64,000 nucleotides of DNA from an uncultured Chloroflexia bacterium (GTDB lineage: Bacteria; Chloroflexota; Anaerolineae; Anaerolineales; Villigracilaceae), in the NCBI GenBank assembly GCA_963709295.1, contig CAVPVW010000003.1:403283-467282 (forward strand), read 5' to 3'. Below are positions 6,688 through 49,611 of the stretch, piece by piece. The translations under genes were made by a program, and so were the position numbers. The stretch's first letter is position 1, and the number at the start of each line of letters is the position of its first letter. The notes under the pieces were generated by a model, which did no database searches, was not told the origin of the DNA, and worked only from the letters and a program-made list of their open reading frames with translations.

Positions 6688-7386
6688 ATGGAAACCGACA
6701 AACGATGGACCATAGCGGTACTGGGGGGAACAGGCAAAGAAGGCAAAGGACTCGCTTCAAGGTGGGCAAAAGCCGGGTTATCGGTGGTCATTGGCTCAAG
6801 GAACATTGACAGGGCCAAGGAGGCTGCAGCAGAAATTAATTCGGCCAAATGTCCCATTTCGGTGCAGGGAAAAGATAATTTAAATGCGGCACGCGCAGCC
6901 GATATTGTTGTTCTCTCGGTGCCCTATTCAGCCCATCGGGAGACACTCGAAACAGTAAAATCCGCCTTGCAGGGAAAAATTCTTGTTGACGTTACGGTGC
7001 CATTGGTGCCTCCCAAGGTAACCAAAGTCCAGATGCCGCCTGCGGGATCCGCCGCACTCGAAGCAAGAGAAATCCTTGGTGACACTGCCGAAATCGCATC
7101 TGCCTTCCAAAACATATCTTTCGAACACCTTCAAGGGGATCACGAGATCGGCTGCGATGTTCTTGTCACCGGTACAAGCAAAGAAACCCGGGCAGTTGCA
7201 TTGGACTTGGTCTCGCAAGCCGGATTGGCAGGCTGGGACGCAGGTCCTTTGGAGAACTCGATGGTGGCTGAAGGTCTCACCAGCATACTGATCCATATCA
7301 ATAAGATCTACGGCGCCAACCATGCCGGAATTAAAATTACCGGTGTGCCGGATAAAAATCAACCCTCTCGGGAAATCACAAAGTAA
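6688..7386 (+). CDS. npdG: NADPH-dependent F420 reductase (F420H2:NADP+ oxidoreductase)
   Basis: N-terminal Rossmann motif IAVLGGTGKEGKGLASRWAKAGLSVVIGSR, typical of the Fno/NpdG family. ~230 aa. Confidence 0.65.
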   Translation: METDKRWTIAVLGGTGKEGKGLASRWAKAGLSVVIGSRNIDRAKEAAAEINSAKCPISVQGKDNLNAARAADIVVLSVPYSAHRETLETVKSALQGKILVDVTVPLVPPKVTKVQMPPAGSAALEAREILGDTAEIASAFQNISFEHLQGDHEIGCDVLVTGTSKETRAVALDLVSQAGLAGWDAGPLENSMVAEGLTSILIHINKIYGANHAGIKITGVPDKNQPSREITK

Positions 7387-8155
7387 ATGGCTTTATCGCT
7401 AATCCCACTCAAGGGGATCCCGATTATCACCCCAGGCTTGGACCTTGCCGAGGTGATAATAAAGGGTATGAACTCCTCCAACCTTGAACTTCAAGGCAAT
7501 GACATAATCGTCATCGCACAAAAAATAGTAAGCAAGTCCGAAGGGAGGCTGGTTAATCTTGCAACCGTTACCCCTTCCAGAGTCTGCAATCGAGCTGGGG
7601 ATCAAAGCAGACAAGGATCCGCGGCTGGTTGAATTAATCCTGAGAGAAAGCAACAAGGTACTTCGCACGCGCCCGGGAACGATCATCGTCGAGCACAAAT
7701 TGGGCTTCATATGTGCCAGCGCAGGAATTGACCATTCCAACGTAAGAGGCGAAGGAAACGCAAACGAAGAGTGGGTTTTACTCCTCCCCGAGAATCCCGA
7801 CGAGACTGCTCGTATTATCAGAAAATCCTTGGAAAAAAAATACGGCGTGCCGATCGGTGTGCTCATCAACGATTCGCATGGTCGCGCATGGCGCATCGGA
7901 ACAGTCGGGATAACCGTCGGGATCAGCGGCATTCCCGCGGTCGTTGATGAACGGGGGTGGAAGGATCTCACTGGGTTTAAATTGAGGATAACGGAGGTCG
8001 GGGCTGCCGATGAGTTGGCTGCAGCAGCCTCCCTTGTGATGGGTCAGGCTGCTGAAGGGACCCCAATTGTCCATGTTCGTGGTTTTCCTTATCCCCTGCG
8101 GGAAAGCCATCTCGGAGAGCTCCTAAGACCGAAGGATCAAGACTTATTCAGGTAA
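7387..8155 (+). CDS. cofE: Coenzyme F420-0:L-glutamate ligase CofE (FbiB N-domain-like), interrupted by an apparent 1-nt frameshift at ~7575-7585
   Basis: Frame 1 (7387-7632) gives the CofE N-terminus ...IAQKIVSKSEGRLVNL. Frame 2 (from 7559) continues PESAIELGIKADKDPRLVELILRESNKVLRTRPGTIIVEHKLGFICASAGIDHSNV. The frame switch is at ACCCCTTCCAGAGTC. Confidence 0.6.
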
Positions 8156-8178
8156 TCCCCCGATTGAAGAGGATCAAA

Positions 8179-8577
8179 ATGACAAAAATTCCTGACAGCC
8201 ACCTGGATTTACTAAAAGACGAATCAAAAGCCATCGCCTACCTGGCCACGATCATGAAAGATGGCTCCCCTCAAGTCACACCCGTCTGGTTCAACTTCGA
8301 TGGCGAGAATATTTTTATTAATTCCGCAGAAGGTCGTATCAAGGACCGAAATATGCGCTCGCGCCCCATCATCGCCATAACCATTCAGGATCCTGCCACC
8401 TTTTACCGGTATTTACAATTGCGAGGCAAGGTGATCGGCTTTTCCCACGACGGCGCCGACGACCACATCGATGCGCTGTCGTTCAAATACACTGGCAAGC
8501 CTCAATACGAATGGCGAAACAAGAACGAAAAAAGGATCAAATACAAGGTCCAGATCGACAAAGTGGATGCGCACTAA
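8179..8577 (+). CDS. PPOX-class (pyridoxamine 5'-phosphate oxidase-like) F420-dependent enzyme family protein
   Basis: Small split-barrel protein. The motif QVTPVWFNFDGENIFINSAEGRIK is typical of PPOX-class F420/FMN-binding proteins. GAAGAGGA RBS before the ATG at 8179. Confidence 0.5.
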   Translation: MTKIPDSHLDLLKDESKAIAYLATIMKDGSPQVTPVWFNFDGENIFINSAEGRIKDRNMRSRPIIAITIQDPATFYRYLQLRGKVIGFSHDGADDHIDALSFKYTGKPQYEWRNKNEKRIKYKVQIDKVDAH

Positions 8578-9180
8578 GTGGACGCCCAACTCTTTCTTCG
8601 ATCACGGCGAAGCGTTAGAAGGTTCAGTGAACAGCCTGTAGACACCAACCTGCTCAAACGCATCATTGAAACGTCAACGTATGCCCCTTCGGCGCACAAC
8701 CGCCAACCCTGGCGATATGCTGTCATTGCCTCCCAGCGCATGAAAAAAGCATTGGCGGATGGCATGGCAGCAGAATTTGAACGCGACCTGTCAAAGGATG
8801 GTCTTGCGGAAGTTGAAATCCATCGCAGATTGGAGCGGTCCCGGAATCGAATCGAGCAGGCGCCGGTCGTGATCATTCTCTGCCTTGACGAATCAAATCT
8901 CGACCAATACAGTGACGACCGAAGGCAAGGCGCGGAAACGATCATGGGCATCCAGTCCATATCGATGGCAGGGCTTCAACTCCTGTTGGCAGCGACCGCC
9001 GAAGGGCTGGGGGGAGTCTGGACATGCGGTCCCCTCTTTGCGCAAGATTACGTCCGATCGGTTCTTCAACTTCCCGGGCCATGGAAACCGCAAGGCATGA
9101 TCCTTTTGGGTTATCCAGGCGAAACTCCTCAAGGCAAAGACATCAAATCCATCGAAGAAGTCGTGAAATTCATCGATTAA
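8578..9180 (+). CDS. Nitroreductase-family protein; stand-alone homolog of the FbiB C-terminal (dehydro-F420-0 reductase) domain
   Basis: RRSVRRF...PSAHNRQPWRY nitroreductase N-terminal signature. Sits between cofE and cofD. Confidence 0.5.
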   Translation: MDAQLFLRSRRSVRRFSEQPVDTNLLKRIIETSTYAPSAHNRQPWRYAVIASQRMKKALADGMAAEFERDLSKDGLAEVEIHRRLERSRNRIEQAPVVIILCLDESNLDQYSDDRRQGAETIMGIQSISMAGLQLLLAATAEGLGGVWTCGPLFAQDYVRSVLQLPGPWKPQGMILLGYPGETPQGKDIKSIEEVVKFID

Positions 9181-9200
9181 TTTCAAAAAACGGAGAGGCG

Positions 9201-10136
9201 ATGAAGATCGTTGCCCTGGCAGGTGGCGTGGGTGGAGCAAAGCTGGTGGATGGATTGGCGCAGATCCTGCCGGCTGAAGATTTAACCGTGGTGGTCAATA
9301 CAGGAGATGATTTTCACCACTGGGGATTGAAAATTTGCCCGGATTTGGATACCGTTTGTTACACCGTCGCCGGACTGGCTAACCCCGAAACAGGTTGGGG
9401 GCGCAATAATGAAACCTGGAATGTGATTTCCGAGATCTCCCGGTTGAACGGGGTTGACTGGTTCAGAATCGGGGACCGCGATCTCGCCACCCACATAGAA
9501 AGGACAGAACGGCTCGCATCCGGCCAGAGACTCTCTGAGATTGTTCACGACTTCTGCCAATCCTGGGGGATCGAAATCACGATTTTACCCATGTCCGACG
9601 ACCCCGTCGAGACCATTGTCATTACTGCCGAACATGGCGAATTGGCATTCCAGGAATATTTTGTTCACCAACATTGTGATCCAAAAGTCAAAGGTTTTAA
9701 GTTTGCCGGAGTTGAGTTCTCGAGACCGGCCATCGGAGTATTGGAATCAATTGCAGGTGCGGATGCCGTTATCTTATGCCCGTCCAACCCCTGGGTAAGT
9801 TTGGATCCAATTCTGTCCGTACCCGGCATCCTCCCGGCGATTAAATCCAGAAAAATTGTTGCAGGGGTCTCGTCCATCGTAGGTGGAGCCGCCATCAAAG
9901 GACCAGCTGCAAAAATGTTCTCGGAGTTGAACATCGAACCCTCTGCATTCGCGGTTGCTCAACAATACAAAGGGATGATTTCGCATTTCGTCATTGATTT
10001 AATCGACCACGATCTTGAGCGAAATATTTCCAGCCTGGGGATGAAAACGACTGCCGTCAACACGGTGATGAAAACCCGGGATGACCGACGCCAGCTTGCC
10101 TCAGATGTGCTAAACTTTGTGCAGAGAGCGGCATGA
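9201..10136 (+). CDS. cofD: 2-phospho-L-lactate transferase CofD (LPPG:FO transferase)
   Basis: MKIVALAGGVGGAKLVDGL...VVNTGDDFHHWGL..PDLDTVCYTVAG is the CofD family signature. GGAGAGG RBS. Stop overlaps the cofC start (ATGA). Confidence 0.75.
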   Translation: MKIVALAGGVGGAKLVDGLAQILPAEDLTVVVNTGDDFHHWGLKICPDLDTVCYTVAGLANPETGWGRNNETWNVISEISRLNGVDWFRIGDRDLATHIERTERLASGQRLSEIVHDFCQSWGIEITILPMSDDPVETIVITAEHGELAFQEYFVHQHCDPKVKGFKFAGVEFSRPAIGVLESIAGADAVILCPSNPWVSLDPILSVPGILPAIKSRKIVAGVSSIVGGAAIKGPAAKMFSELNIEPSAFAVAQQYKGMISHFVIDLIDHDLERNISSLGMKTTAVNTVMKTRDDRRQLASDVLNFVQRAA

Positions 10137-10756
10137 CCATTTGGGCAATCGTACCCGTTAAGCCATTGTTAGTTGGAAAATCCCGACTGGGCAGCGTCCT
10201 CTCCGGCGAGGAACGCGCCAGGCTGAGCCGGATGCTGCTCGAAAGAACGCTTGGAGTTTTGAAGGATACGCCCAGCATCGATGGTTCATTGGTCGTGAGC
10301 AGGGATCCCGAGGCACTGGCGATTGCACGCCAGTTTGGTTGCAGAACGGTGTTGGAACATGGACAAACTCAAACCGATCTAAACCTGGCTCTTTTACGGG
10401 CGACGACCGTCGCAAAGGCGTTCGAAATCAATGGGATACTGGTGCTTCCGGCCGATCTTCCGCTGATTTCCCCGGAGGATATCCAAGCCCTGGTGGATCA
10501 AACCGTAAAATCTCCGGTGGTCATCATCGCCCCGGACCGTCATAACGATGGGACGAATGCCATGCTCATGAGTCCGCCGGGATTGATTAAATTTGATTAC
10601 GGTCCGAATTCCTTCAATCGCCATTGCATGCACGCACTGGAGGCTGGCGCCAAGTTGGAGATCGTAAGGCGGGTGAATCTGGGTCTTGACCTGGATTTCC
10701 CGGATGACCTGGATTATTTCGAACAAATCCAAACTACAAGACAGGAGACGAAATGA
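10133..10756 (+). CDS. cofC: 2-phospho-L-lactate (or PEP) guanylyltransferase CofC/FbiD
   Basis: [19 protein letters not shown] is the classic CofC N-terminus. ~207 aa. Translationally coupled on both sides (ATGA overlaps). Confidence 0.65.
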
Positions 10757-11754
10757 CCAAGAGAGCAGCACTTTACTTGCAGGATTCGCACGACCTTCGA
10801 GACGGGCTCGACTACGTGAAATACGCCGAAGAGAAAGGTTTTGAGGCAGTCTGGCAGGCGGAATCGCGCCTGGTACGCGATGCCATCGTCCCCATGGCAG
10901 CGTACGCAGCCGTCACAAATCGGATCAAAGTCGGCTCAGGTGTCATCAACAACTGGACGCGAAACATCGGCCTGCTGGCCGCCACCTACCTGACGCTGGA
11001 TGACCTGGCTCCGAACCGAATTATCTGCGGAATTGGCGCCTGGTGGGATCCGCTTGCGAAAAATGTCGGCATTGACCGCCGCAAACCACTCACCGCGATG
11101 AAAGAAACCGTGTTGATCATGCGGCAGCTGCTCAAACTCGAGCGGGTCACCTTCCATGGTGAATTCATCCACGTGGACGGAATTGAATTGGACGTCGTTC
11201 ACGGCCGCAGGGAGCCTCGAAACGTGCCGCTCATGATCGGAGCGACAGGCGACCAGATGATGGAACTCACAGGTGAAATTGCCGACGGCGCGGTGCTCAA
11301 TTATTGCGTCCCACCCGACTACAACCACAAAGCTCTTGAGCTGCTCGAAAAAGGGGCTAAAAAAGCCGGACGCAGCCTGAACGACCTGGACCGGCCGCAA
11401 CTTATCGTCTGCTCGGTTGACCAGGATCACGACCGGGCCATCGAGACGTCCAAAATGCTGCTCTGCCAATATCTCGCGCAGCAGCCTCACATCGCCAAGG
11501 CCAGCGGAGTCGCCCAAGACGTTGTGACTGAAATCCAGTCGATCCTTGGGTGGCCAGCCACCAAGGAACAGATCAACAAGGCGAAATATCTCGTCCCTGA
11601 TGACCTGGTATTACGCATCACAGCTTCGGGTACGCCCGAAGAAGCCAAGCAGAAAGTTAAGGAATACGAAAACAATGGGTGCACTTGCCCGATCCTTTAC
11701 CCGGTCGGCGGAAATGTGAGACTCCTTATCGATACGTTTGGCACACCCGCGTAA
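10753..11754 (+). CDS. LLM-class (luciferase-like) flavin/F420-dependent oxidoreductase
   Basis: TIM-barrel LLM motifs ([44 protein letters not shown]). Position directly after cofC. Confidence 0.6.
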
Positions 11755-21522: not shown

Positions 21523-21634
21523 AGGGATCTCCATTTCTTTTAATTATCAGCGATTAATTCTACACCGGTAATAATATTCCCGTGCTGCACTATAATTGAT
21601 TTTACGCAACTAACAATCAGTCGGCAGAGGGCTT

Positions 21635-22111
21635 ATGACTTCAATAGAGAAGAAACAACCCAATTCAAGAATGTGCTTTATTTGTGGAGTGGAAAATCCG
21701 ATCGGTCTAAAGTTGAAGATTTATCAGACATCACCCGGTGTGATTGAGACCACCTACACAGCCCCCGACCATTTCCAGGGTTATCCTGGCATTCTCCACG
21801 GAGGGATCGTGGCATCGATCCTCGACGAAATTAGCGGTCGGGCTCTTATGGGTGAGCCATCATCCCCGAGATTTATGTTCACCGGAAAACTCCAAGTAAA
21901 ATATCGTAAAAATGTCCCGACTGGAAAACCACTCCGGATAGTTGGCAAGGCGATAAAGAGCAGAGGAAAGTCTGCGGAAGGCTGGGCGGGTATTTACGAC
22001 CTGGCAGGTGATTTACTTGCGGAAGCCTCAACCCTACTGATCGACCTTCCAAAGGAAACGATCGATACCGCCAACCTCGATGAACTGGGCTGGAAGGTAT
22101 ACCCTGATTAG
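21635..22111 (+). CDS. PaaI-family hotdog-fold thioesterase
   Basis: CFICGVENPIGLKL...ILHGGIVASILDEISG is typical of the PaaI/YbgC thioesterase family. Confidence 0.6.
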   Translation: MTSIEKKQPNSRMCFICGVENPIGLKLKIYQTSPGVIETTYTAPDHFQGYPGILHGGIVASILDEISGRALMGEPSSPRFMFTGKLQVKYRKNVPTGKPLRIVGKAIKSRGKSAEGWAGIYDLAGDLLAEASTLLIDLPKETIDTANLDELGWKVYPD

Positions 22112-22193
22112 CATCTAGAAAACTGAAGCCAATGTGCCGTATGTCTTGTATAATAGAGTTAAGCCGTCCAATTTGGATTCTACCGAGAGAGCT

Positions 22194-22967
22194 ATGAAAA
22201 TCGAATTTTTCCGACCAAATTCCATGTCAGAAGCCTTGGATTACCTGAACCAGCCAAATTCCATCCCATTGGCAGGTGGAACCTTTGTTAACACACCTGA
22301 CTATAAAACGAAGCTGGAGCAACAAAGCGGCAGCGCAGCCATTATTCTGGTGGATTTGCAACACCTGGGCCTGGGTCACATCCGAAAACACGGAAACACC
22401 CTTGAAATTGACGCCTGTGTCACTCTTCAACAGCTATGCGAGAACGCGCACACTTCTGAGGACTTAAAAAAGGCAATAAAACTGGAAGCCCCTTTGAATA
22501 TACGCAATATGGCGACCATTGCCGGAACTCTGGTTTCGAGCACCGGCCGCTCCGCATTTGCCTGTGCAATGCTGGCACTGGATGCCAAATTATCCATTGA
22601 ACCTGGAACAGAGGAAACCTCCCTTGGAAACTATCTGCTTCTGCGCGAGAAATCGATTCCCGGGAAATTGATCACAAGAATTACGATCCCAATGAATGCT
22701 CCTCTTGCCTTTGAGCATGTCGGAAGGACAAAGTTCGATCTCCCGATTGTCTGTGCAGCAGTCGCCAAGTGGGCTTCCGGAAGAACGAGACTGTCCCTCG
22801 GTGGTTACGGCTCATCCCCCCTCCTCGCGATGGACGGGACCGCAGCCGACGACATTAAATCCGCGGCTAGAAATGGGTATCACGAAGCGGCCGACGAATG
22901 GGCCTCTGCAGAGTATCGAGCGGATGTCGCAGCAACTCTTGCCGGGCGATGCCTCGATCGACTATAA
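22194..22967 (+). CDS. FAD-binding subunit of a molybdenum hydroxylase (YgfM/XdhB/CoxM-like)
   Basis: MKIEFFRPNSMSEALDYL...IPLAGGTF FAD-binding (CO dehydrogenase flavoprotein) N-terminus. ~258 aa. 22 nt upstream of the next gene. Confidence 0.65.
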   Translation: MKIEFFRPNSMSEALDYLNQPNSIPLAGGTFVNTPDYKTKLEQQSGSAAIILVDLQHLGLGHIRKHGNTLEIDACVTLQQLCENAHTSEDLKKAIKLEAPLNIRNMATIAGTLVSSTGRSAFACAMLALDAKLSIEPGTEETSLGNYLLLREKSIPGKLITRITIPMNAPLAFEHVGRTKFDLPIVCAAVAKWASGRTRLSLGGYGSSPLLAMDGTAADDIKSAARNGYHEAADEWASAEYRADVAATLAGRCLDRL

Positions 22968-22988
22968 AATAAACCAATTATTCATTCC

Positions 22989-24065
22989 ATGGCTGCATCT
23001 TTACCATTAAATCGTATTGTTCGAGGAGACTGCGTTGATATTCTGACGTCCTTTCCTGAGAGTTCAGTCGACGTAATTTTTGCAGACCCACCATACAACC
23101 TTCAGTTACAAAAAGACCTTTACCGCCCGAACTTAACAAAAGTTGATGCGGTGTCCGACCAGTGGGATAAGTTCTCCGGGTTTTCGGAGTATGACCACTT
23201 CACAACTCGATGGTTGTCCGCCTGTCGACGGGTGTTGAAAGATTCAGGCACCCTTTGGGTCATCGGCAGCTACCATAACATTTACAGAGTCGGAGCTATC
23301 CTTCAGAACTTGGAGTTTTGGATATTAAACGATGTCATCTGGATAAAGACCAATCCAATGCCAAATTTCCGAGGCGTGCGATTCTCAAATGCTCATGAGA
23401 CGATGATCTGGGCGCAAAAAAAGAAAGGTGCAAAATATACTTTCAACCACCTTGATGCAAAGTCTCTAAATGACAACCTGCAGATGAGAAGCGATTGGAC
23501 AATCCCTCTCACCAGCAGCAAGGAACGCATAAAAATTAACGGTTCAAAGCTGCACTCAACTCAGAAGCCATCTTCGCTTCTTTACAGAATATTGCTTACC
23601 TCTTCGAACCCCGGTGACATCATCCTCGATCCCTTCTTTGGGTCGGGAACAACAGGATACGTCGCCAAGATGCTGCATAGAAAATGGATCGGAATAGAAC
23701 GAGAGAATAAATACATCAAGTCAGCGCAAAAGAGAATTGACTCGGTCGAACCAATCCCGCTCGAATCTTTGTGCTGCGAAGATTACAACCGCCCTAAGCG
23801 AATACCTTTTGGATTATTGGTTGAAAGTGGTCTGCTATCCCCCGGTCAACAGCTTTGGGCTGTGAAGGGCAAAAATAAGGCGATGATCCTTTCCAACGGA
23901 AAAATTAAATGCGAGGATAGGATCGACACCATTCATGGGATGGCGAAAGCGTTGACGAATACTCCCGCAAATGGATGGGATTTTTGGCTTTTCGAAGATG
24001 CAGATGGCGTAAAAAGACCTATCGATGAATTGCGAACTCAATTCCGCAAAGAACTGGGATCGTAA
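22989..24065 (+). CDS. ccrM: CcrM-family beta-class N6-adenine DNA methyltransferase (predicted GANTC specificity), orphan
   Basis: Near-colinear similarity to Caulobacter CcrM along the whole length: FADPPYNLQL, DAVSDQWDKF, WVIGSYHNI(Y/F)RVG, NPMPNFRG, RFSNAHET, KPSSLLYRILL, ILDPFFGSGTTG, and the C-terminal nonspecific DNA-binding domain (LLSPGQQLW). The gene is clearly more AT-rich than its flanks. Confidence 0.8.
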   Translation: MAASLPLNRIVRGDCVDILTSFPESSVDVIFADPPYNLQLQKDLYRPNLTKVDAVSDQWDKFSGFSEYDHFTTRWLSACRRVLKDSGTLWVIGSYHNIYRVGAILQNLEFWILNDVIWIKTNPMPNFRGVRFSNAHETMIWAQKKKGAKYTFNHLDAKSLNDNLQMRSDWTIPLTSSKERIKINGSKLHSTQKPSSLLYRILLTSSNPGDIILDPFFGSGTTGYVAKMLHRKWIGIERENKYIKSAQKRIDSVEPIPLESLCCEDYNRPKRIPFGLLVESGLLSPGQQLWAVKGKNKAMILSNGKIKCEDRIDTIHGMAKALTNTPANGWDFWLFEDADGVKRPIDELRTQFRKELGS

Positions 24066-24086
24066 AGACTACATTTCGAGGACATT

Positions 24087-27066
24087 ATGAATATTACTTT
24101 GCACATTAATGGGAAAGACCATACCCTGGACATCCCCCCCGAGATGACATTGCTAAAAACACTCCGTCAATTGGGCTTTCACGGAGTCAAATTCGGGGAT
24201 GAACAAGGGATCAGTGGCGCAGATACCGTTCTCCTCGATGGCCGGCCAGTCAATGCCGGGCTGATGTTCGCTGCTCAAGCCGAAGGCCGCAAAATCGCCA
24301 CGATCGAAGCCCTTGGCGAACATCCGGACCAGGGCTGGCAAAAAACCGGCGGGTTGCATCCCATCCAGAAAGCATTCATAGAAAACGGGGCAATCCAATG
24401 TGGTTATTGCACCCCAGCCCAGGTGCTGGCTGCCAAGGCGCTACTGGACACAAATCCGAATCCTTCCGAAATCGAAGTGCGGGAAGCGCTGTCGGGAGTG
24501 CTTTGTCGCTGTACAGGTTACGCCAAGCCGGTACAGGCTGTCCTTAAAGCGGCTGCCGTGATGCGGGGGGAAGATCAATTCGATGGCAAGGAATACCTTA
24601 TTCCGGATGACAATCCTCCTTCTCCCTTACCCTCCAATGACGATTTGCCCGGAACAAACGGAGTGCAACTCAGCGTGATGCCCAAAGTCATCTTTGCGCC
24701 AAAGACATCGATTTACCAAACCGTGGGTAAGCCGGAAATTAAAGTGGATGCCATCAAGCTCGTGCAAGGGAAACCTGCCTTTGCTGCGGATATGGATCCC
24801 CGAGGGCTGCTGCATGCGAAGGTGCTCAGGTCACCGCATGCCCATGCCCGAATTAAAAGCATCGACACAACCAAAGCCAAGGCACTTCAGGGAGTCGCTG
24901 CAATCCTGACATGGAAAGACATCCCCCGGGTGGTGTACTCAACTGCCGGGCAGTCTGATCCAATCCCTGGCCCACTGGACACATTCTCTCTTGATAGCAA
25001 GGTCCGGTTTGTCGGTGATCGCGTGGCTTTTGTCGCGGCTGAATCGCCTGAAATCGCAGAGAAAGCCTGCAGGTTGATCGACGTCGAATACGAAGTGCTT
25101 GAACCGATTCTGGAATCGTCAAAAGCGCTGAACAATCAAGATAATCGCATCCATGATGAGTCTGAGTATGTCAATTTTGCGGGGTCGGATGCCGCCAGGA
25201 ACCTGGCCGCGGAAATCCGTATCGATATCGGTGACGTGGAAAAAGGATTCAGCGAGGCCGATGAGGTTTTTGAAGGCGTTTACGATGTGCCGAAGGTCCA
25301 GCAGGCGCATATCGAACCGCATGTCTGCATCACCTACTGGGACGAAGATGACCGCTTGGTCATACGTACATCGACGCAAGTCCCCTTCCACGTGCGGAGA
25401 ATGCTTGCTCCGGTTTTAGGCTTGCCGGTCAAGCGTATCCGCGTGATCAAGCCGCGAATAGGCGGCGGCTTCGGGGGAAAGCAGGAAGTCCTGATGGAAG
25501 ATGTGGCTGCGCACCTGACCATCGCCACAAAACGTCCGGTGCTTTACGAATATACCCGTGAAGAGGAGTTTATCGCAGCGCGCTCCCGTCATCCCATGAG
25601 GATTTGGATGAAAACCGGCGTAAAGCGCGATGGGACCTTGACGGCCAACGAGATGAAAGTACTCTCGGACACAGGCGCTTATGGCTGCCACGCTCTCACG
25701 GTGACCGGCAACACCGGGCACAAATCCATGGCGCTTTATGTTGGCGATGGCGCGTATCGCAAAGCGCCCAACATTCGTTTTTACGCGGACATCGTCTACA
25801 CCAACACTCCCCCGGCTGGAGCGTACCGAGGCTATGGCGTCCCTCAAGGATATTGGCCGGTCGAACGCCACATGGAAAAGATCGCCCGGGCGATGGGGTT
25901 AGATCCGCTCGAATTCAGGCTGAAAAATGCCATCCGTCCGGGCGAATACCATCCCTTCAGCACCGCCTGGAACGAAGGCCGGAAACCTCGTCCTGAGATC
26001 ATCCACACGGTCGGGTTGGAGCAATGCGTCCAGCAGGGAAAAGCAGCCATCGGTTGGGACGACAAAATTGACAATGCCGAATGGCACGACAACAAAACAT
26101 CAGGTAAGAGTTACTCTAAAAAAGGCATTGGTGTCGCGATGGTCATGCAAGGGACAGCCATCCCTTATCTGGACATGGGAGGCGCCTCCATCAAGATGAA
26201 CGACGACGGTTCCTTCAATCTCCTGGTCGGCGCAACCGACTTGGGGACCGGGTCAGATACCGTTCTTGCACAAATGGCGGCAGAAGTTTTGGGTGTGCCG
26301 TTGGATGACATCCTCACCTATTCGTCGGACACGGATTTCACCCCCTTCGACAAGGGGGCGTATGCATCCTCCACCACGTATATCTCCGGGACGGCCGTAG
26401 TGAAGGCGGCAGAAATCGCCGCGGATAAAATCAAGCAAAGGGCTGCCTTACTCCTTGATCTTGAAAGAGCATACCACTATCATCCTTAAAGATAAAAAAG
26501 CCAATGCTCCGGATGGGCGAAGCGTGACGCTTTCCGAAATCGCGCTCGATTCTCTTCACCGCCAGAAACAGGAACAAATCATGGGCGTGGCTTCGTACGT
26601 TTCACCTTCCTCGCCTCCTCCTTTTGCGGCCCAATTCGCAGAGGTTACTGTCGATCAGGAAACGGGCCAGGTCACTGTTGATAAACTCGTCATGGCCGTG
26701 GATTCCGGCATCATCGTCAATCCACTCACGGCTTCCGGACAAATTGAGGGCGGCATGATCCAGGCGCTTGGCTATGCGGTGTGTGAAGAGATGCGGTATG
26801 ATTCCCAAGGCAATGCCCGCGAGAAGGATTTCCTGGACTACCATATCTTCCGAGCCGACGAAGTTCCAGCCCTGGAGACGATCTTTGTGGAAACCTTCGA
26901 GCCCAGCCACCCCTTTGGGGTCAAAGCCGTGGCGGAAATCCCAATGGACGGAGTCGCTCCGGCAGTGGGGAATGCCATTTTGGATGCCGTGGGCGTAAAT
27001 ATCGATGAGAATCCAACCACGCCTGAGCGGGTGTGGAGAGCCTTGAAGAAATTAACACCGGCATAG
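24087..27066 (+). CDS. Molybdenum hydroxylase with fused [2Fe-2S] and molybdopterin-binding domains (XdhD-like xanthine dehydrogenase family), interrupted by an apparent frameshift at ~26465-26480
   Basis: N-terminus carries 2Fe-2S Cys clusters (IQCGYCTPAQV, LCRCTGY). It is followed by aldehyde oxidase/XDH a/b-hammerhead and MoCo domains. The ORF at 26455 in frame +1 continues the C-terminal MoCo dimerization domain (GVASYVSPSS...VNPLTASGQIEGG). Confidence 0.7.
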
Positions 27067-27077
27067 AAAGAGTTGGC

Positions 27078-28427
27078 ATGGCAGATAGAATATACGTGAT
27101 CGGACATGTTAATCCAGATACAGATTCCATCGCATCCGCCATGGGATATGCCTGGCTGTTGAAGCAGCGCGACGGACACGATACAGTTGCATCAAGAGCC
27201 GGTGCGGTGAACGCGCAGACGTCGTGGGTGTTAAAAAAACTTGAGCTGGATCCCCCATTTTTGTTAACAGATGCATCGCCGCGATTTGACTCTGTCACCC
27301 GTCAATTGGATACCATCCATCCCGACAGCCCGCTCACCGATGCCTGGACGCTTGCCAGCCGGACCGGAGGCGTTGCCCCCGTCGTCACAAAAGACGGCTT
27401 GCCTTACGGCATGATCGATGGCATGACCTTATTCAGTTTTTTCCAACAGACCATCGGTCCGCGTTTGGATTTAAGCAGCCAGAGCATCGGGAATGTGCTC
27501 TCTGCTCCCTGCAAGGATGCCGCGGATACGGGTGTTCCAAAATTCCAGGCCAATGGCCATATCCGCGATTCACTAAATCGCATTTTGCGCGAAGAACGCA
27601 ACGATTTTTTTGTAGTGGACGAAGTCGGGCACTATGTAGGGATTTGCCACCAGCGGGGTGTGCTCAACCCGCCGCGCTTGAAGATCATCCTGGTGGACCA
27701 TAATGAACCCCGGCAGGCGATCGCTGCGCTAGAGGAGGCGGAACTTCTTGAAATCCTTGATCACCACCGCCTGGGGAATCCTCACACGCATCAACCCATC
27801 CGCTTTACAGTGGATATCGTCGGCTCCACCAGCACGCTGGTTTCAGAATTGACCGCAGAAGCCGGTCTATCCATGCCGCCCGCCATATCGGGCATGCTGC
27901 TCGCCGGTCTGCTCGCGGATACGCTCATCTTAACTTCTCCGACAACGACTGCAAGGGACAAACAAGCAGCAGAAAGACTCGCCCGCTGGGCATTTGTCGG
28001 CAACGGTCCGTTGAAAGGTGAAACGATCGCCAGTTTTGGAAACCAGGTAATCTCTGCAGGAGCAGGGTTGGCGAACCGCGACCCCAAGGAAGTCGTCAGC
28101 ACAGATATCAAACCTTACGAAGCCGGTGGCTATAAATTTGCCGTTGCCCAGGCAGAAGTGACCGACGTGATGCAGATCAACGACTACCTCGACCAATTGA
28201 CGAAATCCTTGAATGACCTTCGCGATAAGCGAGGATTGGATTTTGCCATGCTTCTGATTACCGATGTGGTTCGAAATTCCAGCCGTCTGATCATCTCCTC
28301 CTCTCCACCTGCCGTCCTGGACGAACTTCCCTACCCACCGCTTCCAGATGGTACTCGTGATGCAGTCGGAGTGGTTTCACGCAAGAAACAGTTGCTCCCT
28401 TCGCTGCTGGGCATTCTCGAAAAATAA
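27078..28427 (+). CDS. CBS-domain-containing DHH/DHHA2 phosphoesterase (family II inorganic pyrophosphatase-like)
   Basis: IYVIGHVNPDTDSIASAMGYA DHH motif I, CBS pair insert, VDHNEPRQ/DHH motif, DHHA2 C-terminal domain. AGAAAGAG RBS. Confidence 0.6.
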   Translation: MADRIYVIGHVNPDTDSIASAMGYAWLLKQRDGHDTVASRAGAVNAQTSWVLKKLELDPPFLLTDASPRFDSVTRQLDTIHPDSPLTDAWTLASRTGGVAPVVTKDGLPYGMIDGMTLFSFFQQTIGPRLDLSSQSIGNVLSAPCKDAADTGVPKFQANGHIRDSLNRILREERNDFFVVDEVGHYVGICHQRGVLNPPRLKIILVDHNEPRQAIAALEEAELLEILDHHRLGNPHTHQPIRFTVDIVGSTSTLVSELTAEAGLSMPPAISGMLLAGLLADTLILTSPTTTARDKQAAERLARWAFVGNGPLKGETIASFGNQVISAGAGLANRDPKEVVSTDIKPYEAGGYKFAVAQAEVTDVMQINDYLDQLTKSLNDLRDKRGLDFAMLLITDVVRNSSRLIISSSPPAVLDELPYPPLPDGTRDAVGVVSRKKQLLPSLLGILEK

Positions 28428-28451
28428 CCAATTCGGATAAACAAACAGATC

Positions 28452-30518
28452 ATGGCGACGCACCTTTACCCTGAAGAGCGACGCTCTGCCACCGTCCTGT
28501 TCGCAGATGTACAGGGATTCACGATGCTCGCCGAGCAGCTGGACTTTGAAGCAGTGAGCGACCTGATCAAGGAACTTTGGTCCCGGTTGGATTCGGTGAT
28601 CGAGGACGCAGGTGGTTACATCGACAAACATATGGGTGATGGCGTGATGGCTATTTGGGGAGCGCCCTACGCCTCCGACCGGGATGCGGAAAAGGCAGTG
28701 CATGCCTCCCTCGCCATGATCGAGTCCCTGAATACATATACTCGAACAACAACCATTCCCGGCGCTGAAAGGTTAAAGCTCCGCGTCGGGGTGAATTCCG
28801 GCCAGGTATTCGCCGGTTACGTAGGCACCAAAAAAGAATATACGGTTATTGGAGACACTGTTAATATCGCCGCCCGATTGGAACAGGCTGCCGAACCCGG
28901 GACAGTCCTTGTTGGGGAAAATACTGCCCAGCTTATCAAATCCATATTTGAATTAAAAGACATTCCTCCCATTCATGCCAAAGGCAAGGCGGAGCCGCTG
29001 AAAGCCTTTCAAATCGCTGGAACCCGCCCATCCACATCCAAGGTCACTTACGACAGCATGGAGCGGCTTGAAACGCACATGGTTGGCCGCGATTCGGAAA
29101 TGACCAGGCTCAGGATGTACTTTGAACAAGCCCGCACATCAATCACACCCAATCTCCTTTTGGTGACGGGAGAAGTTGGTATTGGCAAATCCAGGTTGTT
29201 AATGGAATTTTCGCAAAAATTGCAGCGCGACACCGTGAACGCTCAGGTCTTCCAAACCAGGGCACTCGCCCAGACCGCACGTGTTCCCTACAACATCTGG
29301 AAACAAGTTCTTTTCAGATTCTTTGACCTGGTGGAGGAAACTCCCCACGATCAACTTGCCCTTCAATTCGAACACGAAGTCAGCCTGCTTTGGGAAAGAT
29401 CTCCCGGAAATCCTCCTGCAGAAGTTGTGGTCTCCACTCTGGGCAGGCTAATCGGGATCGATATTGAATCTGAAAAAATTAATCCGAGGCAACCGGAATC
29501 CGCAATCGACGAGCTGGAACAGGCCATGGAATCCGCCCGTGCATTGGTCAACAGGCTGGTAGTCAAAGGACCGCTGGTTCTCGTGATTGACGATCTGCAA
29601 TGGGCGGATAAGGAAAGCCTTGGTTTATTATTATCGCTAGTCAGACCGGGAATCGAGCCGCTGCCAGCTTTGATCATAGGTGGAACAAGGCTTGGTCTTC
29701 TTAAAGATTATCCACAATGGTGGAATGCCTCTCATATCCTGACGCTGAATCCGATCCCTTTTACTGCCGAAATGGTTGCCCTCGCGTACCCGGATTTGAA
29801 GACTCTGCCCGGGCATATCCTGGAAGAACTGGCAAATCGCGCAGAAGGGAATCCTTACTTCCTTGAGGAAATCATCAAGGGACTGGTCAAATCCGGCTTG
29901 GACGACCTTCGAACTGCCCCGGAAGAGACGATTGCCCACATTCAATCTCGTATTCCAGAGTCATTAAGGGCTATGCTGCAAGCCAGGCTCGATAATTTAA
30001 CACGGGAAGCGCGAACGGTCGCCTTGATGGCATCGGTCGTAGGCCGTGTTTTTTGGGTTGGAGCGATCAAAGAGATAGCCAGAGCCAATACCGGAACCGG
30101 AACACTCAGCACCCTCCCCGAACAGGTCATGGACCGCCTGCTCCAGGATGGATTAAGACAACTCGTCCGCGCAGAGATGGCATTTCCCCGCTCCGGCACG
30201 CAATTCTCCGACCAGCAGGAATATATCTTCAAGAACTCCTATCTGAGCGAAGTCGCGTATGGAATGATCCCCATCCGCAGCCGAAACACGTACCATAAAG
30301 CAGTCGCCTTCTGGTTGGCACAATTTGAAGGTACAATCCATAAAGTCATGTCAGCAGAACATTTCGAAAAAGCAGGCGAATTCAACCTGGCCGCAGATCA
30401 ATATGATCTCGCTTTGACATCCGCGAATACCAGACGAACTCTCGGAGAAATTGAGCACCTGACATCCCGTTCCCGTGCCGCACGAGAATCCGGCGAGAAG
30501 GCAGAAAACCATGACTAA
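28452..30518 (+). CDS. Class III adenylate/guanylate cyclase domain fused to an AAA/STAND-type ATPase domain
   Basis: Cyclase homology domain at the N-terminus (SATVLFADVQGFTMLAEQL, HMGDGVMAIWGAP). P-loop LLLVTGEVGIGKSRL and Walker B LVLVIDDLQWAD further downstream. No C-terminal HTH was seen. Confidence 0.65.
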   Translation: MATHLYPEERRSATVLFADVQGFTMLAEQLDFEAVSDLIKELWSRLDSVIEDAGGYIDKHMGDGVMAIWGAPYASDRDAEKAVHASLAMIESLNTYTRTTTIPGAERLKLRVGVNSGQVFAGYVGTKKEYTVIGDTVNIAARLEQAAEPGTVLVGENTAQLIKSIFELKDIPPIHAKGKAEPLKAFQIAGTRPSTSKVTYDSMERLETHMVGRDSEMTRLRMYFEQARTSITPNLLLVTGEVGIGKSRLLMEFSQKLQRDTVNAQVFQTRALAQTARVPYNIWKQVLFRFFDLVEETPHDQLALQFEHEVSLLWERSPGNPPAEVVVSTLGRLIGIDIESEKINPRQPESAIDELEQAMESARALVNRLVVKGPLVLVIDDLQWADKESLGLLLSLVRPGIEPLPALIIGGTRLGLLKDYPQWWNASHILTLNPIPFTAEMVALAYPDLKTLPGHILEELANRAEGNPYFLEEIIKGLVKSGLDDLRTAPEETIAHIQSRIPESLRAMLQARLDNLTREARTVALMASVVGRVFWVGAIKEIARANTGTGTLSTLPEQVMDRLLQDGLRQLVRAEMAFPRSGTQFSDQQEYIFKNSYLSEVAYGMIPIRSRNTYHKAVAFWLAQFEGTIHKVMSAEHFEKAGEFNLAADQYDLALTSANTRRTLGEIEHLTSRSRAARESGEKAENHD

Positions 30519-31326
30519 GCGGACATCCATCTTCTCACAAGTAGCTGAACTTGAAATGAGCGGAAATGCCGGGGCTTTATGCATGATCATTTCCAGCAAA
30601 GGGTCAACCCCTCGACGCGCGGGCGCAAAAATGATCGTTTACCACGACGGAAGCATCTCTGGGACCGTGGGAGGAGGCGAGCTTGAAAACCGTGTCCGCC
30701 ACGCGGCGCTCGAATCGATCAAGAATGGCCGCCCGGTTACTTTAAGTTATAACATGACGGATACCAAGCGAGGAGATCCTGGCATTTGCGGCGGCCAGGT
30801 GGAGGTCTATGTGGAGCCAATCCTTCCTGCACCAACCATCGTTGTCATCGGTGGCGGTCATGTCGGTAAGGCAGTGTCCCATCTGGCCAAATGGCTGGGA
30901 TACCGCGTGGTCGTCTCCGATGATAGAACTGAATTTTGCACCCTTAAGACAAACCCCGATGCGGATCTGCTTCTCCCAATTCCCATGAAGGATATCCCCA
31001 AGAAACTTGCCATTACGCCTCATACCTTTATTGTGTTAACCACGCGCGGTGTGGATGTTGACGTGGAAGGACTTCCAGTTTTAATCGCATCCCCAGCAGC
31101 GTACATCGGTGTGATCGGCTCCAGAAAAAGGTGGTCAATGACCGTCAGCAAGCTGCTGGCGGCAGGAATTTCCAAGAACGCCTTGAAGCGCATTCATTCT
31201 CCCATCGGGCTAAATATTAACGCCGAAACACCTGAAGAAATCGCTGTCAGCATCCTCGCCGAAATTATCATGGTTCAAAACGGAGGGACTGAAAAACCTT
31301 TGAAAGCTACGACGATCATCAAATGA
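30511..31326 (+). CDS. xdhC: XdhC/CoxI-family molybdenum hydroxylase maturation factor
   Basis: XdhC N-domain (ALCMIISSKGSTPRRAGAKM...GTVGGGELE) and Rossmann C-domain (VVIGGGHVGKAVSHLAKWLGYRVVVSDDR). The start overlaps the upstream stop by 8 nt. Confidence 0.7.
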   Translation: MTKRTSIFSQVAELEMSGNAGALCMIISSKGSTPRRAGAKMIVYHDGSISGTVGGGELENRVRHAALESIKNGRPVTLSYNMTDTKRGDPGICGGQVEVYVEPILPAPTIVVIGGGHVGKAVSHLAKWLGYRVVVSDDRTEFCTLKTNPDADLLLPIPMKDIPKKLAITPHTFIVLTTRGVDVDVEGLPVLIASPAAYIGVIGSRKRWSMTVSKLLAAGISKNALKRIHSPIGLNINAETPEEIAVSILAEIIMVQNGGTEKPLKATTIIK

Positions 31327-46895: not shown

Positions 46896-46933
46896 GCCAT
46901 CCGGGCGCCAGCGACAATTAGCAATTAACAAAA

Positions 46934-46970
46934 TAAAAAAACGGATGCTTCTGCATCCGTTTTTTTATTT
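46934..46970. terminator. Bidirectional rho-independent terminator between convergent genes
   Basis: AAAAAAACGGATGCTTCTGCATCCGTTTTTTTATTT: 8-bp stem, 4-nt loop, A and T tracts on both sides. Confidence 0.8.
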
Positions 46971-46975
46971 ATCGC

Positions 46976-47584: not shown

Positions 47585-47640
47585 GGTACCTCCCGGTATT
47601 CGTAATTAGTCAAATAATATCCCAATTGTACTACAAGTTT

Positions 47641-47666
47641 ATGTGACGAAATACTACTTTTCACAT
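47641..47666. promoter_or_regulatory. Candidate operator: inverted repeat ATGTGA-N14-TCACAT, plus repeated TTTCACA motifs in the divergent promoter region
   Basis: Inverted repeat at 47641-47646 / 47661-47666. TTTCACA at 47659 and 47683. Lies between the divergently transcribed XRE-cupin and ArsR-family genes. Confidence 0.35.
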
Positions 47667-47749
47667 GACACTTTGCACTACATTTCACAATACCCCAAGG
47701 GATATTATTGCTTTGTATATTCGTTTATTCGTATATAGGCCAAGACAAA

Positions 47750-48085: not shown

Positions 48086-48114
48086 CCCCACCCTCCCCAC
48101 TTGGAGAAGCGACA

Positions 48115-49554: not shown

Positions 49555-49611
49555 CAATAGTATTTCATCATGAGAATTCCAGCATCACTTTCACACCAGG
49601 TGGATATCACC

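What the first reader, a model, noticed from the sequence alone, without database searches (positions are those of the whole stretch)
22989..24065. AT-rich CcrM-family orphan adenine methyltransferase inserted inside a molybdenum hydroxylase operon
The protein is colinear with Caulobacter CcrM (GANTC methylase), including the C-terminal DNA-binding extension. No restriction partner is nearby. It sits with 22-nt gaps between the FAD subunit and the XdhD-like large subunit, so it is co-transcribed with a catabolic operon. Its base composition is visibly lower in GC than both flanks, which suggests recent acquisition. An orphan cell-cycle-type methylase outside Alphaproteobacteria, in this lineage and in this position, is unusual. 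It could provide epigenetic regulation or protect against a GANTC-cutting enzyme.
Basis: partly seen in the sequence, partly recalled or inferred. Interest (0 to 1): 0.6.

Follow-up and report, generated by a model that had tools for sequence, protein, structure and literature searches.

The report
Ordinary, long-resident CcrM-type DNA methylase
The gene is a real CcrM-type adenine DNA methylase with no restriction partner in the window, but it is an old, vertically inherited gene of this Anaerolineales (Chloroflexota) lineage, not a recent AT-rich insertion, and such methylases with GANTC methylation are already documented in Anaerolineae.

Summary
ORF 22989-24065 (+) encodes a 358-aa CcrM-family beta-class N6-adenine DNA methyltransferase. 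It matches Caulobacter CcrM (PDB 6PBD) at E 1.9e-127 and is colinear through the C-terminal DNA-binding domain. All G, A, T and C contact residues are kept; only the pocket for the variable base differs (G39G40 to QK). It lies 21 nt from a FAD subunit and from an XdhD-like Fe-S/Mo subunit. No restriction enzyme, integrase or transposase is in the 64 kb.

The "recent acquisition" reading fails. The order FAD-methylase-Mo subunit is kept in 18 related loci, down to 58% methylase identity. These loci form one clade inside a Chloroflexota branch separate from Alphaproteobacteria. Synonymous divergence equals that of neighbours (dS 0.92; dN/dS 0.059). GC3 (z -0.8) and codon usage (rank 28 of 52) are typical; the low GC is mainly at codon position 1. 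CcrM homologues in "some Chloroflexi" were listed in 2014. Near-complete m6A at GANTC alongside an orphan homologue was shown in Anaerolineae MAGs in 2019.

Most likely it is an orphan GANTC maintenance methylase, read through with co-directional neighbours by position only. This is an ordinary new member of a known kind.

The parts
22989..24065 (+). CcrM-family beta-class N6-adenine DNA methyltransferase gene (358 aa plus stop)
   Evidence: Pfam N6_N4_Mtase E 2e-62 plus RAMA E 1e-13. 6pbd_A CcrM E 1.9e-127. PADLOC MTase_II 520 bits and oMTase 503 bits. NCBIfam CcrM equivalog NF050803 scores 510 bits, below its 830-bit cutoff.
23067..23732 (+). Catalytic methyltransferase domain (aa 27-248). 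It holds the DPPY motif IV at aa 33-36 (nt 23085-23096) and the SAM-binding DPFFGSGTT motif.
   Evidence: Pfam coordinates. Motifs read directly from the translation and from the alignment to 6PBD.
23106..23120 (+). Loop forming the pocket for the variable third base: L40-Q41-K42-D43-L44, equivalent to CcrM L38-G39-G40-D41-L42. Both glycines are replaced by Q and K.
   Evidence: alignment. The role of the loop comes from PMC6787082. A Gly40-to-K/D replacement is seen in GAWTC-specific homologues in PMC8919816.
23790..24056 (+). C-terminal non-specific DNA-binding domain (RAMA / SAND-like; aa 268-356)
   Evidence: Pfam RAMA E 1e-13. CcrM residues H317, N330, G331, W332, D347, L349 and R350 are kept; S315 is T.
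22968..22988 (+). 21-nt spacer between the FAD-subunit stop and the methylase ATG. It has no Shine-Dalgarno-like purine run and is not conserved in relatives.
   Evidence: No promoter- or terminator-like site lies here.
24066..24086 (+). 21-nt spacer between the methylase stop and the Mo-subunit ATG. It contains a GAGGA Shine-Dalgarno-like motif.
22194..22967 (+). FAD-binding subunit of a molybdenum hydroxylase (YgfM / CoxM-like). It is a neighbour, not a functional partner of the methylase. The start is probably ATG 22194 rather than GTG 22134.
   Evidence: Pfam FAD_binding_5 E 1.1e-22. Best NCBIfam hit is TIGR03312, below cutoff. Relatives are 256-257 aa. Sequence.
24087..27066 (+). XdhD-like fused 2Fe-2S / molybdopterin-binding large subunit. 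In the window it is split into 800-aa and 203-aa ORFs by a 1-nt insertion near 26463-26466.
   Evidence: Relatives have one intact ORF of 992-993 aa.
21635..22111 (+). 4HBT-fold thioesterase, first gene of the co-directional cluster. It follows the 100-nt divergent intergenic region 21535-21634.
27033..31326 (+). Rest of the co-directional cluster: CBS-domain family II (DHH) pyrophosphatase 27033-28427, class III cyclase + AAA_16 28452-30518, and XdhC maturation factor 30475-31326.
   Evidence: The same order is found in L001-L004.

Best explanation
The gene encodes a functional CcrM-family (beta-class, DPPY) N6-adenine DNA methyltransferase with no restriction partner in the window. It has been inherited vertically at this chromosomal position within an Anaerolineales (Chloroflexota) lineage. 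By homology to Caulobacter CcrM it should act as a homodimer. One subunit's catalytic domain reads the target strand of GANTC after pulling the strands apart, flips the adenine into the DPPY pocket and methylates N6 from SAM. The other subunit's C-terminal domain holds the non-target strand. Its likely role is genome-wide maintenance methylation of GANTC (epigenetic marking), not defence. Its position between the FAD and Fe-S/Mo subunit genes is an old accident of gene order. It is probably transcribed by read-through with its co-directional neighbours, without any functional link to the hydroxylase.

Shown: family identity, conserved contact residues, conserved synteny, purifying selection, and typical codon usage.
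Inferred: GANTC specificity, dimeric strand-separation mechanism, orphan status genome-wide, and co-transcription.
For: Family and mechanism.
- 6pbd_A E 1.9e-127 across 346 residues; Pfam N6_N4_Mtase plus RAMA.
- Of 43 CcrM residues described in PMC6787082 as base, phosphate, dimer or structural contacts, 38 are identical. These include R44 (G1); D31/P32/P33/Y34/T191/K193 (A2); F63/Y93/H94/R129/I110 (T4); M122/P123/F125 (C5); and H317/N330/W332/R350.

Vertical residence.
- Synteny is kept in L001-L004 and in 14 GTDB species representatives, down to 58% methylase identity.
- In an NJ tree the syntenic loci are monophyletic inside a Chloroflexota clade that is separate from Alphaproteobacteria.
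- dN/dS is 0.059 and dS 0.92, against 0.86-1.13 for the neighbours.
- Methylase GC3 follows host GC3 in the syntenic relatives.
- Codon-usage rank is 28 of 52 and GC3 z is -0.8.

Orphan status within the window.
- No REase, integrase or transposase was found among the ORFs scanned across the 64 kb.
- It scores 503 bits on PADLOC's orphan-MTase model, close to 520 bits on its best Type II MTase model.

Precedent: m6A at 93-99% of GANTC sites, together with an orphan CcrM homologue, in Anaerolineae CL500-11 MAGs (PMC6329791).
Against: - No methylome data exist for this organism.
- The two glycines of the variable-base pocket are replaced (G39Q, G40K). Gly40-to-K/D accompanies GAWTC specificity in some alphaproteobacterial homologues, so the middle-base tolerance is uncertain.
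- The alphaproteobacterial genome signature is weak or absent. GANTC O/E is 0.72-0.77 under dinucleotide and Markov-3 nulls, but only 0.88 (z -2.4) under a synonymous-codon shuffle.
- There is no intergenic enrichment: 3.06 sites per kb intergenic against 3.63 per kb coding.
- Relatives' loci show no consistent depletion.
- The protein scores below NCBIfam's CcrM equivalog cutoff (510 against 830 bits).
- There is no Shine-Dalgarno sequence before the ATG.
- Only 64 kb of the genome was searched for a restriction enzyme.
Confidence: 0.8

Rival explanations
1. One reading: a recently acquired, AT-rich foreign methylase gene inserted into a pre-existing molybdenum hydroxylase operon.
For: Gene GC is 0.453, against 0.508 and 0.546 for the flanking genes. 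It interrupts two subunit genes of one enzyme with 21-nt gaps.
Against: The same placement is found in 18 related loci, down to 58% methylase identity. dS equals that of the neighbours. GC3 and codon usage are typical. Methylase GC3 tracks each host. The GC deficit is largest at codon position 1, and lower GC1/GC2 than the Mo gene is seen in all syntenic relatives. There are no mobile-element genes, and no close phage homologue (at most 35% identity).
Confidence: 0.03
2. The methylase half of a HinfI-like type II restriction-modification system whose endonuclease is encoded elsewhere in the genome, so its role is defence or self-protection.
For: The top PADLOC hit is a Type II MTase model (520 bits). 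GANTC R-M systems exist in Gamma- and Epsilonproteobacteria (PMC3973325). GANTC is mildly depleted in the window.
Against: No REase was found in 64 kb, nor among the genes checked next to the gene in relatives. R-M genes are normally adjacent and patchily distributed. This gene is stably syntenic, under strong purifying selection and deeply conserved. The Anaerolineae homologue in PMC6329791 was scored as not part of an R-M system. The depletion largely disappears under a codon-aware null.
Confidence: 0.08
3. The placement is functional: methylase expression is deliberately coupled to the hydroxylase / cyclase cluster, linking DNA methylation to a catabolic or signalling state.
For: Tight 21-nt gaps with no internal promoter- or terminator-like sites in them. 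The arrangement is identical in L001-L004. Regional synteny has been kept over long divergence.
Against: In more distant syntenic relatives, 0.06-7.6 kb of unrelated genes separate the methylase from the FAD and Mo genes. These include an M16C peptidase, a Na+/H+ exchanger, a phosphodiesterase, an AbiEii-like nucleotidyltransferase (toxin-antitoxin type) and some opposite-strand ORFs. Other Anaerolineae carry the methylase without these neighbours. In the window the Mo subunit is frameshifted while the methylase is intact. The cluster is also interleaved with other unrelated genes (CBS-pyrophosphatase, cyclase).
Confidence: 0.07
4. A CcrM-family enzyme with narrowed or shifted specificity at the middle base (for example GAWTC or GADTC rather than GANTC), because the G39-G40 pocket is replaced by Q-K.
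For: G39Q and G40K in the window. Only 2 of the 45 Chloroflexota loci recovered from the genome collection (L021, L039) keep Gly at position 40, while nearly all alphaproteobacterial ones do. Lys or Asp at this position occurs in all GAWTC-specific homologues tested in PMC8919816.
Against: The D49G back-mutation did not restore GANTC specificity in that study. Anaerolineae CL500-11 MAGs with a homologue show full GANTC methylation, though their loop sequence could not be retrieved. In the window GAWTC is not depleted (O/E 1.00) whereas GASTC is (0.64) under the codon-aware null. This is the opposite of the GAWTC-methylation signature.
Confidence: 0.15

Closest known systems
Caulobacter crescentus CcrM (M.CcrMI; PDB 6PBD), the orphan cell-cycle-regulated GANTC m6A methyltransferase of Alphaproteobacteria
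   Same: Same length (358 aa) and same two-domain architecture. About 56% identity over the full length. The DPPY and FGSG motifs and essentially all G1, A2, T4 and C5 contacts, dimer residues (F130, H134, D113) and C-terminal DNA-binding residues are conserved. No restriction partner is nearby. It is vertically inherited within its clade.
   Different: A different phylum, and a separate clade in the NJ tree. The variable-base pocket is QK instead of GG, S315 is T, and K126 is R. It is below NCBIfam's equivalog cutoff. The genome lacks the strong GANTC depletion and intergenic enrichment typical of CcrM-bearing Alphaproteobacteria. Nothing is known here about cell-cycle control (CtrA / GcrA / Lon circuitry).
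Orphan GANTC methyltransferase of Anaerolineae CL500-11 MAGs (EMGBS3_04270; Hiraoka et al. 2019, PMC6329791)
   Same: Same class (Anaerolineae). CcrM-type enzyme, with 58.9% identity to an alphaproteobacterial GANTC methylase. Scored as not part of an R-M system. It is associated with m6A at 93-99% of GANTC sites.
   Different: It comes from a different lineage (a lake-water planktonic clade), and its genomic context is unknown.
M.HinfI / M.HpyAIV (GANTC methylases of type II R-M systems in Gamma- and Epsilonproteobacteria)
   Same: Same family and predicted target. Helicobacter homologues also have the C-terminal domain.
   Different: Those are encoded next to an endonuclease. Here there is none in 64 kb, and the gene behaves as a stable core gene.
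GAWTC/GADTC-specific CcrM homologues of SAR11 and a Rhizobiales MAG (Hiraoka et al. 2022, PMC8919816)
   Same: Position 40 is not glycine; it is Lys here.
   Different: Those nest inside the alphaproteobacterial clade and their genomes are depleted in GAWTC. The window shows no GAWTC depletion.

Membership tests
CcrM family (beta-class N6-adenine DNA MTase with C-terminal DNA-binding domain) | Beta-class motif order with catalytic DPPY (motif IV) near the N-terminus and the SAM-binding FxGxG motif near the end of the catalytic domain | tested here: met
   DPPY at aa 33-36 and DPFFGSGTTG at aa 213-222. Full-length Pfam N6_N4_Mtase, profile positions 1-221 of 221.
CcrM family (beta-class N6-adenine DNA MTase with C-terminal DNA-binding domain) | Roughly 90-residue C-terminal domain colinear with that of CcrM, needed there for activity | tested here: met
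   Pfam RAMA at aa 268-356. The alignment to 6pbd_A runs to residue 354. H317, N330, G331, W332, D347, L349 and R350 are conserved; S315 is T.
CcrM family (beta-class N6-adenine DNA MTase with C-terminal DNA-binding domain) | Residues that read G1, A2, T4 and C5 of GANTC in the 6PBD complex | tested here: met
   R44, D31/P32/P33/Y34, T191, K193, F63, Y93, H94, I110, R129, M122, P123 and F125 are all identical; K126 is R, a main-chain contact.
CcrM family (beta-class N6-adenine DNA MTase with C-terminal DNA-binding domain) | Gly39-Gly40 flexible pocket that accepts any base at the N position | tested here: not met
   QK in the window. Non-Gly at position 40 in 43 of the 45 Chloroflexota loci from the genome collection. 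The consequence for specificity is unknown.
CcrM family (beta-class N6-adenine DNA MTase with C-terminal DNA-binding domain) | m6A at GANTC in native DNA | not testable with these tools
   This needs SMRT or nanopore data or an enzyme assay. The only support is precedent in Anaerolineae MAGs.
CcrM family (beta-class N6-adenine DNA MTase with C-terminal DNA-binding domain) | NCBIfam equivalog NF050803 (CcrM) curated score cutoff | tested here: not met
   510 bits against a cutoff of 830. It is the best-scoring family by far, but the protein is not an NCBI-defined equivalog of the Caulobacter protein.
Alphaproteobacterial-style CcrM epigenetic system | Genome-wide GANTC under-representation (more than 2-fold) with more than 1.5-fold intergenic over-representation | tested here: not met
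   O/E is 0.72-0.88 depending on the null model. Intergenic density is 3.06 per kb against 3.63 per kb in coding sequence. Power is low: 64 kb and 13 intergenic sites.
Alphaproteobacterial-style CcrM epigenetic system | Cell-cycle-restricted expression and proteolysis (CtrA / GcrA / Lon control) | not testable with these tools
   No expression data are available, and the regulators were not searched for outside the window.
Orphan (solitary) methyltransferase | No cognate restriction endonuclease | tested here: inconclusive
   None was found among the ORFs scanned in the 64-kb window, or among the flanking genes checked in relatives. The rest of the genome was not seen, and REases are hard to recognise by profile.
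Type II restriction-modification system (HinfI-like) | Adjacent endonuclease gene | tested here: not met
   The neighbours are a FAD subunit and an Fe-S/Mo subunit. The same holds in L001-L004.
Recently acquired genomic islet | Atypical synonymous composition, presence/absence polymorphism among relatives, and mobility genes | tested here: not met
   GC3 z is -0.8 and codon-usage rank is 28 of 52. The gene is present at the same site in 18 relatives. dS equals that of the neighbours. There is no integrase or transposase.

The most novel reading that the evidence does not exclude
CcrM may be a class-wide, vertically inherited core epigenetic enzyme of the Anaerolineae, a second CcrM lineage parallel to the Alphaproteobacteria. 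Its variable-base pocket is systematically remodelled (G39G40 to Q/K/R/S-K/N/Q/H), which could give a different middle-base preference or different kinetics. It may serve replication-linked regulation in these filamentous bacteria without the alphaproteobacterial pattern of GANTC avoidance.
Probability: 0.25. Interest if true: 0.45.

Novelty: new member of a known kind. Interest (0 to 1): 0.15.

Why it matters
It matters little on its own. The gene is another member of the already documented CcrM-type orphan methylases of Anaerolineae. The useful outcome is corrective. A methylase wedged between two subunit genes, with lower GC than its flanks, looked like a fresh insertion. Comparative data show instead that it is an old, ameliorated resident, and that its low GC reflects the protein's amino-acid composition. 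A modest open point remains. The whole Chloroflexota clade lacks the two glycines that Caulobacter CcrM uses to tolerate any middle base. Enzymology on one of these proteins would therefore test what actually sets the 'N' in GANTC.

Tried and rejected
- Recent-HGT hypothesis. I tested it with GC, GC1-3, leave-one-out codon likelihood, synteny in 84 loci, dN/dS and dS, and a phage search. All went against it.
- GANTC avoidance as a proxy for activity or specificity. The dinucleotide-shuffle and Markov-3 nulls suggested depletion, with GANTC the lowest of 16 XYNY'X' motifs. A synonymous-codon shuffle that preserves proteins and codon usage reduced this to z -2.4, with GAWTC at O/E 1.00 and GASTC at 0.64. 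Other motifs (GGNCC, CTNAG, TANTA) were more depleted. Relatives' loci showed no consistent depletion. I judged this inconclusive and did not use it as positive evidence.
- Intergenic enrichment of GANTC. None was found, but power is low.
- A conserved promoter or motif in the spacer upstream of the methylase. The spacer is not conserved among L001-L004.
- The CL500-11 methylase sequence, wanted to see its residue-40 state. It is not in the supplements held.
- Restriction enzymes among the genes intercalated next to the methylase in relatives. Those scanned and recognised are housekeeping or toxin-antitoxin genes.
- Structure prediction and fold search were not run. At about 56% full-length identity to a solved complex they were unnecessary.
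Full report
**What is there**

ORF 22989-24065 (+) starts with ATG and encodes 358 aa.
- It has a complete Pfam N6_N4_Mtase domain (aa 27-248, E 2e-62) followed by a RAMA domain (aa 268-356, E 1e-13).
- Against all PDB chains the best match is Caulobacter CcrM, 6pbd_A. E is 1.9e-127 at 428 bits, with query 9-354 aligned to chain 15-363 in one block. The next match, DpnA, covers only the catalytic domain (E 6e-30).
- NCBIfam's best model is the CcrM equivalog NF050803 at 510 bits, below its strict 830-bit cutoff.
- PADLOC scores it almost equally on a Type II MTase model (520 bits) and on the orphan-MTase model (503 bits).

**Neighbourhood**

- Upstream lie a 4HBT thioesterase (21635-22111) and a FAD_binding_5 subunit. 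The listed ORF is 22134-22967, but relatives' lengths point to the ATG at 22194.
- Downstream lies an Fe-S + hammerhead + MoCoBD protein with the XdhD-type architecture. Its best NCBIfam models are XdhA and TIGR03313.
- Next come a CBS-domain DHH pyrophosphatase, a class III cyclase fused to AAA_16, and XdhC.
- The gaps flanking the methylase are 21 nt each.
- No promoter-like or terminator-like site falls in these gaps. Co-transcription is therefore plausible but unproven.
- The methylase ATG has no Shine-Dalgarno-like sequence, and the spacer is not conserved among close relatives.
- The rest of the 64 kb is ordinary chromosome: F420 biosynthesis, PlsX/FabF, YjeF, aldehyde:ferredoxin oxidoreductase, multihaem cytochromes, DinG plus a DEDDh exonuclease, and GatCAB.
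- Among the ORFs scanned there is no recognisable restriction endonuclease, integrase or transposase.

**Is it a recent, AT-rich insertion? No.**

(i) Composition.
- Gene GC is 0.453, against 0.507 +/- 0.031 for 58 window ORFs (z -1.7). Four ORFs are as low or lower.
- GC3 is 0.499 against 0.542 +/- 0.056 (z -0.8). The largest deficit is at codon position 1 (GC1 0.465), which points to amino-acid composition.
- A leave-one-out synonymous-codon likelihood ranks it 28th of 52 genes (-1.188 against a mean of -1.184 +/- 0.042).
- In all 18 syntenic relatives the methylase has lower GC1 and GC2 than the Mo-subunit gene. Its GC3 follows the host, from 0.36 in a 40%-GC genome to 0.72 in a 57%-GC genome. 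That is the signature of a fully ameliorated, long-resident gene.

(ii) Synteny.
- The closest database homologues (89, 81, 72 and 71% identity) sit in exactly the same order: 4HBT - FAD - methylase - Fe-S/Mo - DHH - cyclase - XdhC.
- A scan of one genome per GTDB species returned 80 loci.
- tblastn with the window's proteins shows the order FAD ... methylase ... Mo subunit ... DHH ... XdhC ... SPFH in 14 further Anaerolineales species representatives. These include Ca. Villigracilis propinquus and have 58-67% methylase identity.
- In those genomes 0.06-7.6 kb of unrelated genes lie between the three. Examples are an M16C PreP-type peptidase, a Na+/H+ exchanger, a phosphodiesterase, an AbiEii-like nucleotidyltransferase and an aldehyde dehydrogenase.
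- The tight packing in the window therefore looks like compaction of an old order, not an insertion into an intact operon.

(iii) Evolutionary rate. Against L001 the methylase has dS 0.92 and dN/dS 0.059. Its neighbours have dS 0.86-1.13 and dN/dS 0.03-0.12.

(iv) Phylogeny. In an NJ tree of the 85 proteins, Chloroflexota sequences separate from alphaproteobacterial ones, and the syntenic loci form one sub-clade.

(v) Phages. No phage homologue exceeds 35% identity.

**Is a CcrM outside Alphaproteobacteria unusual? Not in this class.**

- The protein search returned 8000 scored homologues. More than 100 have 64% identity or better, and those that carry organism names are from Anaerolineales or Chloroflexi MAGs.
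- Gonzalez et al. 2014 explicitly included 'some Chloroflexi' among CcrM homologues with the conserved C-terminal domain. They found endonuclease neighbours only in Epsilon- and Gammaproteobacteria (PMC3973325).
- Hiraoka et al. 2019 detected m6A at 93-99% of GANTC sites in two Anaerolineae CL500-11 MAGs (88% in a third, low-completeness Chloroflexi MAG). The two carry a CcrM-type methylase scored as not part of an R-M system (PMC6329791).
- A 2026 preprint finds GANTC to be the second most frequent methylated motif across hot-spring MAGs and SAGs.

**Specificity and mechanism**

- I mapped the residues described for the CcrM-DNA complex (PMC6787082) onto an alignment with a Caulobacter sequence.
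- Every side chain that reads G1 (R44), A2 (DPPY, T191, K193), T4 (F63, Y93, H94, I110, R129) and C5 (loop-45 M122, P123, F125) is identical.
- The same holds for the relay, dimer and phosphate residues (K118, E135, F130, H134, D113, R179, K187).
- It also holds for the C-terminal residues whose mutation cripples CcrM (H317, N330, W332, R350). S315 is conservatively T.
- The one systematic difference is the pocket for the variable base. CcrM L38-G39-G40-D41-L42 becomes L-Q-K-D-L.
- Only 2 of the 45 Chloroflexota loci from the genome collection keep Gly40, whereas alphaproteobacterial sequences almost always do.
- Hiraoka et al. 2022 found Lys or Asp at this position in GAWTC-specific homologues, but a D-to-G back-mutation did not change specificity (PMC8919816).
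- I therefore predict GANTC, with residual uncertainty about the middle base.
- Site statistics do not settle it. GANTC O/E is 0.72 (dinucleotide shuffles) and 0.77 (Markov-3, lowest of 16 related motifs). Under a protein- and codon-usage-preserving shuffle it is only 0.88 (z -2.4), with GAWTC at 1.00 and GASTC at 0.64.
- There is no intergenic enrichment and no consistent depletion in relatives.
- The strong alphaproteobacterial signature is thus absent.

**Verdict**

This is a genuine CcrM-family methylase with no restriction partner in the window. It is most likely an active GANTC m6A enzyme working by the CcrM dimer and strand-separation mechanism. It was inherited vertically and sits at an old position between two hydroxylase subunit genes. 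The 'AT-rich, recently acquired, unusual lineage' interpretation is not supported. It is a new member of a known kind and of low interest. The remodelled variable-base pocket of the whole Chloroflexota clade is the only mildly open question.

Noticed in passing
window 26455-26489 (indel near 26463-26466): The XdhD-like Fe-S/Mo large-subunit gene is split into 800-aa and 203-aa overlapping ORFs by a 1-nt insertion relative to L001 and L002. Their genes, and those of L003 and L004, are intact at 992-993 aa. This is either a real pseudogene or split gene, or an assembly error. The inserted base is not in a long homopolymer.
   Followed up: partly
window 24087-31326: The 'hydroxylase operon' is a mosaic. 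A CBS-domain family II pyrophosphatase and a class III nucleotide cyclase fused to an AAA_16/STAND-like ATPase lie between the Mo subunit and its XdhC maturation factor. This order is conserved in L001-L004. The cyclase domain also hits PADLOC Pycsar cyclase models (E 2.7e-29), probably a generic cyclase-fold similarity.
   Followed up: partly
window, whole: Other 5-mer palindromic motif biases appear under the codon-aware null. GGNCC is at O/E 0.73 (z -5.2), CTNAG at 0.66 and TANTA at 0.67, all depleted. CCNGG is at 1.37 (z +8.6), enriched. GGNCC avoidance might reflect another R-M system or methylase elsewhere in the genome.
   Followed up: no
L040 4536-5528 (JBMZCV010000025.1, Chitinophagales MAG): A 34%-GC contig assigned to Chitinophagales (Bacteroidota) encodes a CcrM homologue with the Anaerolineae-type QK loop (58% identity). 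In the NJ tree it pairs with an Anaerolineae sequence (L061), between the main Chloroflexota and alphaproteobacterial groups. This could be inter-phylum transfer or mis-binning.
   Followed up: no
L072 and L084 (Rhodobacterales MAG; SAR116 single-cell genome): Two low-GC alphaproteobacterial CcrM homologues carry K-K at positions 39-40 instead of x-G. They are candidates for the GAWTC-specific subtype described by Hiraoka et al. 2022.
   Followed up: no
L005 1486-4395, L006 11134-14043, L007 999-3899, L008 11101-14010, L009 11094-14033: An ORF of 966-979 aa lies immediately beside the methylase gene in five distant syntenic relatives. The two scanned (L005, L007) are M16C (PreP-type) peptidases. 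The ORF is absent from this position in the window's lineage.
   Followed up: partly
window 22134-22200: The mechanical ORF for the FAD subunit starts at GTG 22134 (277 aa). Relatives are 256-257 aa, and an ATG at 22194 is preceded by a GAGAGAG purine run, so 22194 is the likelier start. A GATTC site (22176) lies just upstream of it.
   Followed up: partly
window 6688-11754: A cofactor F420 biosynthesis and use cluster: F420-dependent NADP oxidoreductase, CofE ligase, CofD, CofC, and a luciferase-like monooxygenase.
   Followed up: no
window 45882-52418: A cluster of multihaem c-type cytochromes (MtrC/MtrF-like domains and paired CXXCH motifs). One is fused to a cytochrome b561-type membrane domain, which suggests an extracellular or periplasmic electron-transfer module.
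   Followed up: no
L045 (Luminiphilus MAG, 2.8-kb contig): A short contig binned to a gammaproteobacterium carries a CcrM that nests among Rhodobacterales sequences. This is probably a binning artefact.
   Followed up: no
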